NCBI GenBank assembly: GCA_964550175.1
Contig: CAZJXP010000001.1
Span: forward strand, 706,774-770,773
Length of the DNA stretch: 64,000 bases
Direction: 5' to 3'
Origin: an uncultured Methanosarcinales archaeon
GTDB lineage: Archaea > Nanobdellota > Nanobdellia > Woesearchaeales > ARS49
The notes beneath the pieces are model-generated. The model saw only the letters and a program-made list of their open reading frames with translations. It was not told the origin of the DNA and made no database searches. Positions 10,509 to 48,129 of the stretch are shown here, in pieces. The position numbers were made by a program, and so were the translations under genes. Position 1 is the stretch's first letter, and each line of letters begins with the position of its first letter.

Positions 10509-11102
10509 ATGCAGGAATTTCACTGGACAATCGCTCGTAGCCTATTTGAACGCGTATTTTGTTCGCCGGTTGTGCGCCAGATGACCCTCCTTGAGTTCGG
10601 ACTGAAAATCAAGACCGAGTACGTCCCGATGCGGAACTATCCCTACAAATCAAGACATGGATTGTCCGAGTTGCAATTACGAAAACGGCTCGAGAAACAA
10701 GGCTGGCACGTGTGGCGCGGCGGGTTTTTGCACGCCGCTTCGGATTACTTTCCGTCAGTGCGGCGCAGATATAACCAATTGGCCGAGCTTATTACTGAGT
10801 TTTACGGCAAGGAGTTGTTTGAGCGACTGTGCTATCTTTCGTCCGTGCACCACGGCATGCCTGACTTTCTCTGCTATCATCCCGCCACCAAGGAGTTCAA
10901 GTTTGTGGAGTGCAAATTAGGGCACGAATCGCTTTCTCATCGGCAGATAATGACGATATCTAAATTGCGCGACGTTGGGTTCGTTACTGAGGTGCATAAA
11001 TTGGTTGATTCGTGCACGAAAACAAGACGGGCGACGGTTGACGTTTCTTTCGGAAAGAAGGAGGTGCTTGAGAAGGAAATGACGCTGAAGACGAAGTGGT
11101 GA
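10509..11102 (+). CDS. VRR-NUC domain nuclease (PD-(D/E)xK)
   Basis: 'HGMPDFLCYHP...FVECKLGHESLSHRQ'. Confidence 0.6.
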   Translation: MQEFHWTIARSLFERVFCSPVVRQMTLLEFGLKIKTEYVPMRNYPYKSRHGLSELQLRKRLEKQGWHVWRGGFLHAASDYFPSVRRRYNQLAELITEFYGKELFERLCYLSSVHHGMPDFLCYHPATKEFKFVECKLGHESLSHRQIMTISKLRDVGFVTEVHKLVDSCTKTRRATVDVSFGKKEVLEKEMTLKTKW

Positions 11103-45871: not shown

Positions 45872-46058
45872 TCATGACACCTTTGTCTGTTGATGACGAG
45901 ATTCGGAGAACTTGTCTCTCCCGTCCGCCCGAGTCTTTCAACCCTTGCGTCGCTCGATATCAGAGATTGCCGAGGGAGGCTTTAAAAAGGTTTCTGTCGA
46001 AATAGACACTGGACATTTTCGCGCAGAGCATATAAATGACTTTTAGATTGATTGTGCA

Positions 46059-46820
46059 ATGGAAATAAACGCACAAACTGCGGAATTATGCGGCATCATT
46101 CTTGGTGATGGTCACATGCATAAAACGAAAAATCGAATAACGATCTCTGGCAGCAAGGATGACATCCATTATTTCCGCAACCGAGTTATTCCCTTGTTTC
46201 TCCAATGTTTCCCAGACATACATCCCGTATTAGTTCGACTTAAAACAGCCGAGGCATATAATCTTCAAGTTGAGAATAAGTTAGCATTTCAGTTTTTTAT
46301 TCAATCATATAATTTGCAACGGGGACCCAAAGAGGCTATGCACATTCCTTTAGTCATCCTTGCGAATGATTCACTTATTCCTCATTTTCTCCGAGGACTT
46401 TTTGATACTGATGGTTCATTTAAATTTTGCAAACAGGCACGCGGTTATGCATATTACCCTCGAATACGCATTGCTTTAGCCGAGTCTCCTCTCACTGATG
46501 CGTTACAGTTCCTTTTTACGCGCGCGGGATTTAAGGCGATAAAATCAGTGAAACTGAATCATGGGTTTGCAACGATGAAGAATCTTGTAACCTACGAAAT
46601 TTCCGGTTGCGCGGCTTTTGAACGGTGGATGACTCATATTTGTCCCGCTAATCCTGTGCAAAAAGCAAAGTATGACTATTGGACGAAATATGGACGTCAT
46701 GAGCCAGGAATGATTTATGAAGAAAGAATTTACAAAATAGCCTCGGGCGGATTCGAACCGCCGTCAACGCGTCCAGAGCGCGCTATACTTGACCAACTAT
46801 ACGACGAGGCTTTAAAGTAA
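46059..46820 (+). CDS. free-standing LAGLIDADG homing endonuclease (double motif)
   Basis: 'LCGIILGDGHM' and 'LRGLFDTDGSF'. Own TATA 'catataaatg' about 22 nt upstream. The last ~28 codons are antisense to tRNA-Gln. Confidence 0.7.
   Translation: MEINAQTAELCGIILGDGHMHKTKNRITISGSKDDIHYFRNRVIPLFLQCFPDIHPVLVRLKTAEAYNLQVENKLAFQFFIQSYNLQRGPKEAMHIPLVILANDSLIPHFLRGLFDTDGSFKFCKQARGYAYYPRIRIALAESPLTDALQFLFTRAGFKAIKSVKLNHGFATMKNLVTYEISGCAAFERWMTHICPANPVQKAKYDYWTKYGRHEPGMIYEERIYKIASGGFEPPSTRPERAILDQLYDEALK
46738..46811 (-). tRNA. tRNA-Gln (anticodon CTG)
   Basis: Acceptor AGCCTCG/CGAGGCT (A1:U72); D stem GTAT/GTAT; anticodon stem GCGCG/CGCGT with loop CTCTGGA; T arm GGCGG-TTCGAAT-CCGCC. TATA 'agctttttaaacc' upstream. 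Confidence 0.8.
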
Positions 46821-46886
46821 AATAAACGTGTAATTGTGGGTTTAAAAAGCTTTATGTGGCTCTTGAGTTGGGCGTTCAAGAATTAT

Positions 46887-47327
46887 CTAAGCAAGCCAAA
46901 CAACAAAGAATCCTGTGAGCGTTCCCAACACGACGCCCCAGACACAGTCAGAGAAGTAATGTTTCTTCAGGAACGCGCGCGTGCTCGCGACCAATAACGC
47001 GACCACAATAAAGAACGTCGAGAGCCAAATCTTCTGGAACACATCCATCAAGACAATGGCGAGGATGGCGGCGCGCATCGAGTGCATGCTGACGGCGGTT
47101 CCGGCGTCGATCTTCTGCCACCAGGTGCGGTAGAGCACGGGCTTCGGTCGGTCGCGAATATAGAATGACCGGACAACCGAGATGATGACGTATGCGATGA
47201 CGAGACCGAGGAACAATCGCCAGAACGTTCCGAAGTCTTTGAGAAGAATGAATGTGGCGCTCGTTGCGAGATAGACTGGTAACCCGCCTAAGGCGCTAAG
47301 GTCGCTAATGACGTCGTCGAGTGACAT
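46887..47327 (-). CDS. PAP2-superfamily membrane phosphatase
   Basis: 'SMHS', 'SRAFLKKHYFSD' phosphatase motifs; 4-5 TM segments. Confidence 0.6.
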   Translation of the reverse strand: MSLDDVISDLSALGGLPVYLATSATFILLKDFGTFWRLFLGLVIAYVIISVVRSFYIRDRPKPVLYRTWWQKIDAGTAVSMHSMRAAILAIVLMDVFQKIWLSTFFIVVALLVASTRAFLKKHYFSDCVWGVVLGTLTGFFVVWLA

Positions 47328-47402
47328 AGCCGTACTTAGGAGTTGGAGGTATTTAAAGCTTGAGGGATATCTTTAAGTAGAGGTTATTCGCGCAAGACGT
47401 GT

Positions 47403-48041
47403 ATGGGGGAAACAGAGAAACAAGTCAAGAAGTATTTTTCGCGCAAAGTCAAGCGTGGAATCTATTCCGCAACGGTCGCGTTCTTGAAAAAGAATTACGC
47501 TCCCGGTAAAAAACTGCTCGACTTGGGCAGCGGCATCGGCATATTCTCCGATTACGCCAAGAAGCTGGGCTATGCCGTTCGAACGTGCGATTACGACCCT
47601 AACTATTGCGTTTTTCCGGATGTCAAAATAGATATCTGCGACGGCGACTGGAACCCGTTGCCGTACAAGAACCAATCGTTCGATGTTGTCTTGTATACGG
47701 AAGTCATCGAGCATGTCGGAAACCCGCTGCACTGGCTGCGGGAAATAAATCGAGTCTTGAAGCCTGGCGGAGTGGTCATTGTTTCAACTCCGAACCTGTT
47801 GAACTGGAAGCAGAAGCTTTGGTTCGTTTTCACGTCGTTCTTTGTCACGCACGCGATCGCCAAGAAACCCGGCGACCATATCACGCACATCACGCCGCAG
47901 TTCCTAAACTATTTCATGAACATCGAAGGGTTTGAGACGCACACGTTCTACGCGAACTCGTACGTTCCGTTCACTTCAATCAAGACGCCGAATTCTGCGC
48001 TGCTTTCCGACACGGTTTTTGTTGTCGGGAAGAAAAAGTAA
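47403..48041 (+). CDS. class I SAM-dependent methyltransferase
   Basis: 'LLDLGSGIGIF', 'VLYTEVIEHV'. Confidence 0.75.
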   Translation: MGETEKQVKKYFSRKVKRGIYSATVAFLKKNYAPGKKLLDLGSGIGIFSDYAKKLGYAVRTCDYDPNYCVFPDVKIDICDGDWNPLPYKNQSFDVVLYTEVIEHVGNPLHWLREINRVLKPGGVVIVSTPNLLNWKQKLWFVFTSFFVTHAIAKKPGDHITHITPQFLNYFMNIEGFETHTFYANSYVPFTSIKTPNSALLSDTVFVVGKKK

Positions 48042-48056
48042 CTAGCATACAATAAA

Positions 48057-48129
48057 TAGCCCCACCCGGATTCGAACCGGGGTCCGGTGGTCCAAAGCCA
48101 CCTATCCTTGACCGCTAGACGATGGGGCT
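48057..48129 (-). tRNA. tRNA-Gln (anticodon TTG)
   Basis: Acceptor AGCCCCA/TGGGGCT (A1:U72); anticodon stem GGTGG/CCACC with loop CTTTGGA; T arm CCCGG-TTCGAAT-CCGGG. TATA 'ctttttaaagc' upstream. Confidence 0.8.

What the first reader, a model, noticed from the sequence alone, without database searches (positions are those of the whole stretch)
46059..46820. Free-standing LAGLIDADG endonuclease gene with own promoter, antisense-overlapping tRNA-Gln(CTG)
The double LAGLIDADG motifs are intact, implying an active-looking enzyme. The gene is not inside an intron or intein. It has a TATA box about 22 nt upstream. Its 3' end runs through the entire tRNA-Gln gene on the opposite strand. It may be a domesticated homing endonuclease, or the remnant of a mobile element that targeted the tRNA or ribosomal-protein locus.
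Basis: seen in the sequence. Interest (0 to 1): 0.55.

Follow-up and report, generated by a model that had tools for sequence, protein, structure and literature searches.

The report
Homing endonuclease cassette beside tRNA-Gln
A small selfish gene for a DNA-cutting enzyme sits right at the end of a glutamine tRNA gene in a tiny DPANN archaeon, and it belongs to a large, apparently undescribed family of such genes that nearly always sit against tRNA genes.

Summary
ORF 46059-46820 (+) encodes a 253-aa protein with two LAGLIDADG motifs, both catalytic Asp intact, and a conserved TATA box 21 nt upstream. Its last 27 codons read antisense through the whole tRNA-Gln(CTG) gene (46738-46811, -).

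It is not a domesticated host gene or a dead remnant. The closest relative found (L089, uS15 86% identical) has the same tRNA-Gln(CTG)/rps15 locus without the ORF, so window 46000-46725 is a 726-bp insertion starting within 12 nt of the tRNA 3' end. The cassette carries a promoter module and an ORF core with no stop codon of its own.

Relatives show:
- purifying selection (dN/dS about 0.1);
- GC3 far below host genes;
- a tree incongruent with host genes;
- one copy at the paralogous tRNA-Gln(TTG) instead;
- flanking 18-21-nt copies of the tRNA 3' end in three loci.

More than 400 DPANN species genomes encode relatives. About half of the 84 copies examined abut a tRNA gene, against 3% of control ORFs. 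A conserved CACTGGAC-N14/16-TATA module lies upstream of many of them.

Best reading: an active free-standing homing endonuclease cassette that targets tRNA gene ends. Cleavage activity and target site are inferred, not shown.

The parts
46000..46725 (+). Inserted cassette (726 bp): promoter module plus ORF core, absent from the closest relative
   Evidence: Global alignment of the window with L089. Homology runs through the tRNA and about 12 nt of trailer (to 46726), then resumes at 45999. Each boundary is ambiguous by a few nt (ATTTC-like microhomology). GC is 0.40 against 0.52 for the rest of the window.
46007..46014 (+). CACTGGAC upstream element, 16 nt before the TATA box
   Evidence: Invariant in the eight-sequence upstream alignment A2. 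Family-wide, 39 of 67 occurrences of CACTGG[AT]C in 2.5 Mb lie within 250 nt upstream of a family ORF (0.6 expected). Spacing to the TATA is fixed at 14 or 16 nt.
46030..46037 (+). TATA box of the endonuclease gene (ATATAAAT), ending 21 nt before the ATG
   Evidence: Read directly from the sequence and conserved in position across the clade. Promoter function is inferred.
46059..46736 (+). Endonuclease core, residues 1-226 (two LAGLIDADG domains plus a conserved C-terminal helical region)
   Evidence: AlphaFold confidence is high through about residue 229 (10-residue block means 80-98 for residues 1-230; residues 231-253 below 50). Foldseek matches I-Tsp061I and I-DmoI. Core length is 226 codons in 7 of 8 clade members, with dN/dS 0.07-0.15 where calculable.
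46086..46112 (+). LAGLIDADG motif 1 (LCGIILGDG, catalytic Asp17)
   Evidence: Alignment A1.
46389..46415 (+). LAGLIDADG motif 2 (LRGLFDTDG, catalytic Asp118)
   Evidence: Alignment A1; R112, G113, F115, D116, T117, D118 and G119 are invariant.
46737..46820 (+). 27-codon tail plus stop, encoded antisense to the tRNA (IASGGFEPPSTRPERAILDQLYDEALK*)
   Evidence: pLDDT is below 50. Eighteen homologues carry the same GGFEP-type tail, and 14 more distant ones end before it.
46738..46811 (-). tRNA-Gln(CTG), complete and intron-less; its 3' end is the insertion site
   Evidence: ARAGORN and Rfam at 58.2 bits. It aligns with the tRNA-Gln(CTG) of L089.
46841..46848 (-). TATA-like box of the tRNA gene (TTTTTAAA on the minus strand), 30 nt upstream of the tRNA 5' end
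   Evidence: Read from the sequence. It aligns with the equivalent box in L089, 12 of 14 nt. The endonuclease stop codon (46818-46820) lies between this box and the tRNA.
48057..48129 (-). tRNA-Gln(TTG), the unoccupied paralogous site
   Evidence: In L006 the cassette sits at this paralogue instead.

Best explanation
This is a free-standing, single-chain LAGLIDADG homing endonuclease gene carried on a compact cassette of about 726 bp. The cassette is inserted immediately 3' of tRNA-Gln(CTG), in the opposite orientation to the tRNA. It brings its own promoter (a CACTGGAC element, then a TATA box, then a leaderless or short-leader start) and a 226-codon enzyme core with no stop codon. Translation therefore runs on, antisense, through the tRNA gene and ends between the tRNA and the tRNA's TATA box. 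This adds a disordered 27-residue tail that probably has no function. Sitting in the 3' trailer leaves the tRNA intact. The inferred mechanism is that the enzyme cuts cassette-free tRNA-Gln alleles at or near the tRNA 3' end, and the break is repaired from a cassette-bearing allele, copying the cassette in. The 18-21-nt copy of the tRNA 3' end found on the far side of the cassette in some relatives would then act as a portable homology arm. That would let the cassette enter any tRNA-Gln gene whatever its flanks, including the TTG paralogue. Shown here: the fold, the intact catalytic residues, purifying selection, a filled-versus-empty site polymorphism at nucleotide resolution, relocation to the paralogous tRNA, the flanking tRNA-end repeats, and a family-wide link to tRNA gene ends. 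Inferred: cleavage activity, the target sequence, the repair pathway, and the role of the CACTGGAC element (possibly autoregulation).
For: Enzyme:
- Pfam LAGLIDADG_3 hit.
- D17 and D118 conserved.
- AlphaFold pLDDT 89, with I-Tsp061I and I-DmoI as top structural matches.
- dN/dS 0.07-0.15 and no frameshifts in eight clade members.

Mobility:
- L089 has uS15 86%, the 73-aa neighbouring protein 98% and the methylase 80% identical to the window. It has tRNA-Gln(CTG) followed 145 nt later by rps15 and no ORF. The alignment defines a clean 726-bp indel at the tRNA 3' end.
- In L006 the ORF overlaps tRNA-Gln(TTG), while tRNA-Gln(CTG)-PAP2 stands without it.
- L003, L006 and L009 carry an 18-21-nt copy of the tRNA 3' end just upstream of the promoter (shuffle p=0 of 200-300). 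Similarity between cassettes starts exactly at that copy.
- L042 shows the same architecture at a tRNA-Met. L053 and L050 show the mirror image with tRNA 5' ends.
- Endonuclease identity between host groups (58-74%) does not track host-protein identity. For example L004-L010 is 74% with the methylase at 58%, while L004-L012 is 72% with the methylase at 78%. Equally distant hosts L007 and L015 are only 45-50%.
- GC3 is 0.35 against 0.59-0.81 for host genes.

Family:
- At least 411 relatives in GTDB species genomes, nearly all DPANN, with several genomes holding more than one copy. There are 2334 representative clusters at E<=1e-10.
- 45 of 84 copies have a tRNA at their 3' end, against 28 of 929 control ORFs. 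Counting intron-less tRNAs only gives 20 of 84 against about 1% expected. ARAGORN gave 2-3 false calls on reversed sequence against about 100 real.
Against: - No cleavage assay and no target site are known.
- The intact tRNA in the filled allele still holds any target that lies wholly inside the tRNA, so how the filled allele escapes cutting is unexplained.
- Synonymous sites are saturated between all sampled copies, so no recent transfer is documented. The L089 difference could be a precise loss rather than a gain.
- Within one host group (L002, L003, L009, L010) endonuclease divergence roughly tracks host divergence, consistent with long vertical residence.
- The window copy has no flanking tRNA-end repeat.
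- Only one empty-site contig was found, and it is a 3.7-kb metagenome contig.
- Several intron-bearing tRNA calls by ARAGORN were not confirmed by Rfam.
Confidence: 0.7

Rival explanations
1. This is a domesticated LAGLIDADG protein. It would be a host-beneficial DNA-binding factor, for example a regulator of the tRNA-Gln locus or of its own CACTGGAC promoter class (in the way WhiA is a domesticated LAGLIDADG transcription factor). It would be kept by selection and inherited vertically, with occasional loss.
For: - The neighbourhood is conserved (XPD-like helicase, 73-aa protein, rps15, the ORF, tRNA-Gln, PAP2, methylase, FtsZ) down to 41% identity.
- There is strong purifying selection while synonymous sites are saturated.
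- Divergence roughly tracks the host within one group.
- A nucleotide-conserved upstream element at a fixed distance from the TATA box suggests regulated expression.
- WhiA appears among the structural matches.
Against: - Both catalytic Asp are kept family-wide, unlike typical domesticated LAGLIDADG proteins.
- The closest relative lacks the gene cleanly.
- The gene relocates to a paralogous tRNA.
- tRNA-end repeats flank it.
- It occurs in several divergent copies per genome next to many different tRNAs.
- GC3 is far from host genes.
- Its tree is incongruent with host proteins.
Confidence: 0.15
2. The gene is a passenger or relic of a larger integrative element. An integrase would have inserted that element into the 3' end of the tRNA gene, creating the tRNA-end direct repeats (att sites), and the endonuclease gene is what is left.
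For: Direct repeats of a tRNA 3' end flanking an insert are the classic signature of tyrosine-integrase elements in archaea (established knowledge). They are seen here in L003, L006, L009 and L042.
Against: - The indel against L089 is only 726 bp and holds nothing but the promoter and the ORF.
- No integrase or other element genes lie next to it in any of the clade loci.
- The same compact unit recurs at many tRNAs.
- Relatives in viral contigs are only remote (23-32% best-segment identity for all but one short hit, mostly partial).
Confidence: 0.07
3. The gene is a decaying, no longer functional leftover. The run-through into the tRNA would simply mark the loss of its original stop codon.
For: The ORF has no stop of its own, and its 27-residue tail is predicted to be disordered. 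Homing endonuclease genes are expected to decay once fixed (established knowledge).
Against: - The core is intact at 226 codons in 7 of 8 clade members, with dN/dS about 0.1 and conserved catalytic residues.
- The stop-less junction is shared by 18 homologues, and by distant copies at tRNA-Glu and tRNA-Ile at the same protein position. It is therefore an old, maintained arrangement.
Confidence: 0.05

Closest known systems
Archaeal rRNA-intron LAGLIDADG homing endonucleases (I-Tsp061I, I-DmoI)
   Same: Single-chain enzyme with two LAGLIDADG motifs, two alpha-beta-beta-alpha-beta-beta-alpha domains and one acidic residue per motif. These are the best structural matches.
   Different: Those enzymes are encoded inside bulge-helix-bulge introns of rRNA genes. 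This one is free-standing with its own promoter, sits in a tRNA 3' trailer, has an extra conserved C-terminal helical region, and shows no detectable sequence match to any PDB chain.
Phage T4 SegB, and (from memory) the HNH endonucleases in phage T5 tRNA regions (free-standing homing endonucleases in tRNA gene clusters)
   Same: A free-standing endonuclease gene lodged among or against tRNA genes and using that conserved region for preferential inheritance (PMC2330249, found).
   Different: Those are GIY-YIG or HNH enzymes in phage genomes that act during co-infection. This is a LAGLIDADG enzyme in cellular DPANN chromosomes, with the ORF physically overlapping the tRNA gene and tRNA-end repeats flanking the cassette.
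Fungal mitochondrial mobile ORFs that insert in a host gene and carry a replacement copy of its end (e.g. Allomyces atp6; recalled from memory, not checked here)
   Same: The endonuclease cassette is flanked by a duplicated terminal segment of the target gene, so one intact copy is kept and a displaced fragment is left behind.
   Different: The target there is a protein-coding gene and the ORF is fused in frame to it. Here the target is a tRNA gene end, in either orientation.
Integrase-type integrative elements at archaeal tRNA genes (SSV-type, pNOB8-type)
   Same: Insertion at a tRNA gene end, with direct repeats of about 20 nt or more of tRNA sequence.
   Different: There is no integrase. 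The whole insert is 726 bp and encodes only the LAGLIDADG protein.
I-TevI autorepression at its own promoter (recalled from memory)
   Same: A possible parallel for the conserved CACTGGAC element at a fixed distance from the TATA box of the endonuclease gene.
   Different: Binding of this protein to the element has not been tested, and the element does not resemble the empty-site sequence.

Membership tests
LAGLIDADG homing endonucleases (single-chain, two-motif type) | Two LAGLIDADG motifs, each with the conserved acidic residue at motif position 8 | tested here: met
   LCGIILGDG (D17) and LRGLFDTDG (D118). D118 is invariant and D17 is kept in at least 90% of 33 homologues. Pfam PF14528 scores above its cut-off.
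LAGLIDADG homing endonucleases (single-chain, two-motif type) | Pseudo-dimeric alpha-beta-beta-alpha-beta-beta-alpha fold | tested here: met
   AlphaFold pLDDT 89, pTM 0.85, with the secondary-structure order as expected. Foldseek gives probability 1.00 to I-Tsp061I, I-DmoI, PI-SceI and I-SceI.
LAGLIDADG homing endonucleases (single-chain, two-motif type) | Site-specific double-strand cleavage of a long (14-40 bp) target | not testable with these tools
   Needs an in vitro cleavage assay on the empty-site sequence from L089.
LAGLIDADG homing endonucleases (single-chain, two-motif type) | Presence/absence polymorphism of the gene at one defined site in related genomes | tested here: met
   L089 lacks the 726-bp cassette at the tRNA-Gln(CTG) 3' end. 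L006 has tRNA-Gln(CTG) empty and tRNA-Gln(TTG) filled.
Free-standing (not intron- or intein-borne) homing endonuclease genes | Not embedded in an intron or intein, so the host gene is uninterrupted | tested here: met
   The tRNA-Gln(CTG) is complete and contiguous. Rfam finds no intron family in the window. There are no intein or host-protein flanks in the ORF.
Free-standing (not intron- or intein-borne) homing endonuclease genes | Own transcription signals | tested here: inconclusive
   The TATA box and upstream element are conserved in sequence and spacing. No transcript data are available.
Domesticated LAGLIDADG proteins (WhiA-like regulators, maturases) | Loss of catalytic acidic residues and/or fixed presence in all members of the host clade | tested here: not met
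   The catalytic Asp residues are retained, and the gene is absent from the closest relative.
Integrase-mediated integrative elements at tRNA genes | An integrase gene within the inserted segment | tested here: not met
   The insert is 726 bp with a single ORF. No integrase lies in the flanks of the clade loci.

The most novel reading that the evidence does not exclude
DPANN archaea may harbour a large family of LAGLIDADG cassettes specialised for the ends of tRNA genes. They would sit in the 5' leader in sense orientation or in the 3' trailer in antisense orientation. The ORF is left open so that it reads into the tRNA, and a 13-28-nt copy of the tRNA end serves as a portable homology arm, so an intact tRNA is always regenerated. 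Expression would be set by a shared CACTGGAC-TATA operator, possibly bound by the enzyme itself. If true, these cassettes are a concrete, still-active agent that duplicates, truncates and separates pieces of tRNA genes. They would then be a candidate origin for the long or oddly placed tRNA introns and the split tRNA genes of Nanoarchaeota and other DPANN.
Probability: 0.3. Interest if true: 0.8.

Novelty: new variant of a known kind. Interest (0 to 1): 0.6.

Why it matters
Homing endonucleases are well known from introns, inteins and phage genomes. A cellular family that systematically colonises the ends of tRNA genes has not, as far as the searched literature shows, been described. It would have three consequences.
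- It shows another "safe harbour" strategy for a selfish gene. tRNA leaders and trailers are trimmed off by RNase P and RNase Z (established knowledge; not tested here), so the host gene survives the insertion.
- It gives a testable mechanism for the tRNA-gene debris, duplications and rearrangements seen in DPANN genomes.
- It offers a set of compact, monomeric, probably tRNA-gene-specific meganucleases with natural variation in target (Gln, His, Leu, Ser, Arg and others).

It also flags an annotation hazard. Gene callers extend these ORFs through tRNA genes, giving proteins with spurious GGFEPP-type tails.

Tried and rejected
- **PDB sequence search:** the protein found nothing even at E<=10. 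Only fold comparison linked it to solved enzymes.
- **NCBIfam:** the only hits were far below cut-off, to intein-containing host proteins. There is no named family.
- **tRNA-intron idea:** I considered that the ORF lies in a tRNA intron or a group I intron. ARAGORN with unlimited intron length called two tRNAs with introns of about 870 nt enclosing the ORF (L042, L053). Reading the sequences showed instead a complete tRNA plus a second, partial copy of its end. Rfam finds no intron family in the window. The archaeal group I introns reported in PMC6125680 are all in rRNA genes.
- **Decayed tRNA fragment in the window:** I suspected a decayed tRNA 3' fragment upstream of the window ORF (45967-45986, 13 of 20 matches). 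L089 has the homologous stretch in its empty site, so it is ordinary flank.
- **Inverted tRNA-like match:** a 13-nt inverted match at about 45923-45935 (p about 0.01) lies in the same shared flank and was not pursued.
- **CACTGGAC versus the tRNA-Gln anticodon loop:** the similarity (CTCTGGAC, 7 of 8) is probably coincidence, because the element also precedes copies next to other tRNAs.
- **Viral contigs:** these hold only remote LAGLIDADG relatives.
- **Metagenome scan:** a scan with uS15 returned a single locus, though it proved decisive.
- **Source organism:** cluster look-up gave no source names.
- **dS-based dating:** this failed because synonymous sites are saturated.
Full report
**What is in the sequence.** The ORF at 46059..46820 (+) is real. 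It is 253 codons long and starts at an ATG. It matches Pfam LAGLIDADG_3 above the curated cut-off (E=7.9e-7). ARAGORN and Rfam both place a complete, intron-less tRNA-Gln(CTG) at 46738..46811 on the minus strand, wholly inside the ORF's 3' end. A second tRNA-Gln (TTG) lies at 48057..48129 (-). The ORF is AT-rich compared with its surroundings: GC 0.40 against 0.52, and GC3 0.35 against 0.59-0.81 for six neighbouring host genes. The identical protein is encoded on an independent assembly of run SRR13076506, so the open frame is not an assembly accident.

**The protein.**
- It has two LAGLIDADG motifs: LCGIILGDG (residues 10-18) and LRGLFDTDG (residues 111-119). Each keeps the acidic residue at motif position 8 (D17, D118). 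D118 is invariant and D17 is present in at least 90% of 33 homologues.
- AlphaFold with that alignment gives mean pLDDT 89 and pTM 0.85. The secondary-structure order is that of a pseudo-dimeric LAGLIDADG enzyme, followed by a conserved helical C-terminal region.
- Residues 231-253 have pLDDT below 50. These lie within the 27-residue tail (227-253) that is encoded antisense to the tRNA.
- Foldseek against the PDB ranks I-Tsp061I first (E=4.6e-11), followed by intein endonuclease domains and I-DmoI.
- Sequence search of the PDB found nothing. NCBIfam hits only intein-containing proteins far below cut-off.
- Among eight clade members the core is 226 codons in seven, with no frameshift or stop. 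dN/dS is 0.07-0.15 wherever dS can be calculated; synonymous sites are otherwise saturated. The core is therefore under purifying selection.

**Signals around it.** An alignment of the regions upstream of eight clade members shows two conserved elements. One is CACTGGAC, often in the tandem form CACTGGnCACTGGAC. The other is a TATA box 14-16 nt further on. In the window these lie at 46007-46014 and 46030-46037, and the ATG follows 21 nt after the TATA box. On the other strand, a TTTTTAAA box at 46841-46848 lies 30 nt upstream of the tRNA 5' end and aligns with the equivalent box in a relative. The endonuclease stop codon (46818-46820) falls between the tRNA and the tRNA's own promoter. Only one of the three frames is open across the antisense tRNA.

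**The decisive comparison.** A metagenome scan with the neighbouring uS15 protein returned one contig, L089. Its proteins are by far the closest to the window's:

| Protein | Identity to window |
|---|---|
| uS15 | 86% |
| 73-aa neighbour | 98% |
| methylase | 80% |
| PAP2 | 66% |

(All.) L089 carries tRNA-Gln(TTG), PAP2, tRNA-Gln(CTG) and rps15 in the same order and orientation. However, only 145 nt separate tRNA-Gln(CTG) from rps15, and there is no LAGLIDADG ORF. A global alignment shows homology through the tRNA and about 12 nt of trailer. It then shows a 726-nt gap in L089 corresponding to window 46000-46725, and homology resumes down to rps15. The boundaries are ambiguous by a few nucleotides (ATTTC-like microhomology). 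The inserted unit is therefore just the promoter module plus the ORF core, and it has no stop codon of its own.

**Evidence that the unit moves.**
- *Relocation to the paralogue.* In L006 the ORF overlaps not tRNA-Gln(CTG) but tRNA-Gln(TTG). That tRNA has an 18-nt intron, which ARAGORN in bacterial mode miscalled as tRNA-Pro. In the same locus tRNA-Gln(CTG)-PAP2 stands without the ORF. The C-terminal tails of the 18 close homologues divide the same way. PEP, PER or SES tails are the antisense of a CTG anticodon loop, and PKP tails are the antisense of TTG (inference from the codons).
- *Flanking repeats.* L003, L006 and L009 carry an 18-21-nt copy of the tRNA-Gln 3' end (TAGCCCyGGGCGGATTCGAA) immediately upstream of the CACTGG element. 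This is a direct repeat of the sequence at the other end of the cassette (0 of 200-300 shuffles reach the score). Similarity between cassettes at different sites begins exactly at that repeat. The window copy has no such repeat; the stretch I first took for a decayed copy is ordinary flank shared with L089.
- *Incongruent divergence.* Endonuclease identity does not follow host identity.

| Comparison | Endonuclease identity | Host-protein identity |
|---|---|---|
| Between host groups (window; L002/3/9/10/11; L004/6/12) | 58-74% | methylase 52-61%, XPD 47-57% |
| L004-L010 | 74% | methylase 58% |
| L004-L012 | 72% | methylase 78% |
| To L007/L015 (hosts equally distant) | 45-50% | - |

 This is hard to reconcile with strict vertical descent. 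Within the L002/3/9/10 group, however, divergence does track the host, so residence can be long.
- *Composition.* GC3 of the endonuclease is below host GC in nearly every locus.

**The wider family.** A scan of one genome per GTDB species found at least 411 relatives. Almost all are in DPANN lineages: Woese-, Nano-, Pace-, Aenigm-, Alti-, Micr- and Iainarchaeota. An exhaustive profile search found 2334 representative clusters at E<=1e-10. Several loci hold two copies. Viral contigs hold only remote relatives.

I annotated tRNAs with ARAGORN. It made 2-3 calls on reversed control sequence against about 100 on the real loci. The results were as follows.
- 45 of 84 family copies have a tRNA gene starting within -120..+150 nt of the end of the protein core. 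Of these, 36 are co-directional and 9 convergent. The control was 28 of 929 other ORFs.
- Counting intron-less tRNAs only, the figure is 20 of 84 against about 1% expected.
- Rfam confirmed the intron-less and short-intron calls in a 20-locus sample and added one convergent case. It did not confirm several calls with long introns, so the higher figure is an upper estimate.
- The tRNAs are of many kinds: Gln, Ser, Leu, His, Arg, Cys, Met, Val, Phe and others.
- In distant convergent cases (tRNA-Glu in L039, tRNA-Ile in L086) the tRNA 3' end starts 1-2 nt after the same protein position as in the window.
- Terminal repeats recur. L042 has a complete tRNA-Met overlapped antisense by the ORF end, plus a second copy of the tRNA 3' end beyond the ORF start. 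L053 and L050 show the mirror image, with a 28-nt or 13-nt copy of the tRNA 5' end upstream of a co-directional ORF that runs into the complete tRNA.
- The CACTGG[AT]C element is family-wide. Of its 67 occurrences in 2.5 Mb, 39 lie within 250 nt upstream of a family ORF on the same strand (0.6 expected). All nine tandem copies do so. The spacing to the TATA box is 14 nt in 19 cases and 16 nt in 6.

**How it most likely works.**
- *Shown:* the fold, the intact active-site residues, selection, a precise filled/empty polymorphism at the tRNA 3' end, relocation to a paralogous tRNA, flanking tRNA-end repeats, and a family-wide association with tRNA ends.
- *Inferred:* the enzyme cuts cassette-free tRNA-Gln alleles at or near the tRNA 3' end, and repair from a filled allele copies the cassette in.

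Placement in the 3' trailer (or, in relatives, the 5' leader) leaves the mature tRNA intact, because these parts are trimmed off. The tRNA-end repeat would give homology on the far side of the break that does not depend on the local flank. This explains entry into the TTG paralogue and into different neighbourhoods. The 27-residue tail is most simply a by-product of an ORF that ends at the edge of the mobile unit: it is disordered, variable and absent from more distant relatives. The CACTGGAC element may be an operator for autoregulation; that is speculation.

One open problem remains. An intact tRNA persists in the filled allele, so immunity of that allele requires the target to extend into the trailer, or some other protection.

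**Comparison with what is known.** By fold and motifs this is a member of the single-chain LAGLIDADG homing endonucleases, closest to archaeal rRNA-intron enzymes, but it is free-standing. The nearest functional parallel is phage T4 SegB, a GIY-YIG enzyme lodged in a tRNA gene cluster (PMC2330249, found). The flanking duplication of a target-gene end recalls fungal mitochondrial mobile ORFs and integrase-type elements at tRNA genes; both parallels are from memory and were not checked here. Four full-text searches found no description of a DPANN LAGLIDADG family tied to tRNA genes. The paper on archaeal group I introns reports LAGLIDADG genes only in rRNA introns. Absence from this literature library is not proof of novelty.

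**Rivals.**
- *Domesticated regulator (0.15).* This is favoured by the conserved neighbourhood and strong selection. It is opposed by the retained catalytic residues, the empty site, relocation, multi-copy spread and composition.
- *Relic of an integrase element (0.07).* This would explain the repeats, but the insert is only 726 bp with one gene.
- *Decaying pseudogene (0.05).* This is contradicted by selection and by the age of the stop-less junction.

**Verdict.** The feature is an intact, probably active, mobile LAGLIDADG cassette at the 3' end of tRNA-Gln(CTG). It is one member of a large DPANN family that lives at tRNA gene ends. It counts as a new variant of a known kind, of moderate to good interest.

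Noticed in passing
window 46007-46014 and 46030-46037; upstream of family ORFs in 31 of 92 copies (e.g. L003, L006, L019, L053, L058): A CACTGG[AT]C element, often in the tandem form CACTGGTCACTGGAC, sits 14 or 16 nt before the TATA box of the endonuclease gene. It is conserved even between copies only 25-30% identical in protein. Of the 67 occurrences in 2.5 Mb, 39 are upstream of family ORFs.
   Followed up: partly
L053 9860-10047 and 14439-14624: Two divergent paralogues in one locus share a promoter module of about 185 bp that is 90% identical, although the ORFs differ strongly. This suggests exchange or homogenisation of the module. The second copy lies just downstream of a tRNA 3' end.
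   Followed up: partly
L042 1-972 (minus strand): A complete tRNA-Met(CAT) is overlapped antisense by the ORF end, and a second copy of its 3' end lies beyond the ORF start. ARAGORN with unlimited intron length misread this arrangement as a tRNA with an 876-nt intron.
   Followed up: yes
L033 9671-9801 and 10758-10868: Two tRNA-Tyr genes, both called with introns, flank one family ORF.
   Followed up: no
L061 573-684 and L070 1864-1976: 5S rRNA genes lie directly upstream, on the opposite strand, of family ORFs that are followed by tRNA-Leu.
   Followed up: no
window 46887-48129 compared with L089 902-1981: The stretch between the two tRNA-Gln genes is rich in indels. The window has an extra methyltransferase gene (47403-48041) and lacks the 122-aa ORF that L089 and the L003 group have between PAP2 and tRNA-Gln(CTG).
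   Followed up: no
L006 5695-5785: A tRNA-Gln(TTG) with an 18-nt intron at the canonical position was called tRNA-Pro(TGG) by ARAGORN in its default mode. Several ARAGORN calls with long introns elsewhere were not confirmed by Rfam.
   Followed up: partly
L016 about 10690-10733 and L021 about 1195-1234: Short tRNA-like fragments (an antisense T-arm GGCGGATTCGA and a 5'-end-like AGCCCCG...) lie between the ORF end and the co-directional tRNA-Gln(TTG). They look like debris of earlier arrangements.
   Followed up: no
record titles of L009, L010, L012, L013, L019 and others: Many contigs with DPANN-type gene content and synteny are titled 'uncultured Methanosarcinales archaeon'. This is probably a labelling error in those MAG submissions.
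   Followed up: no
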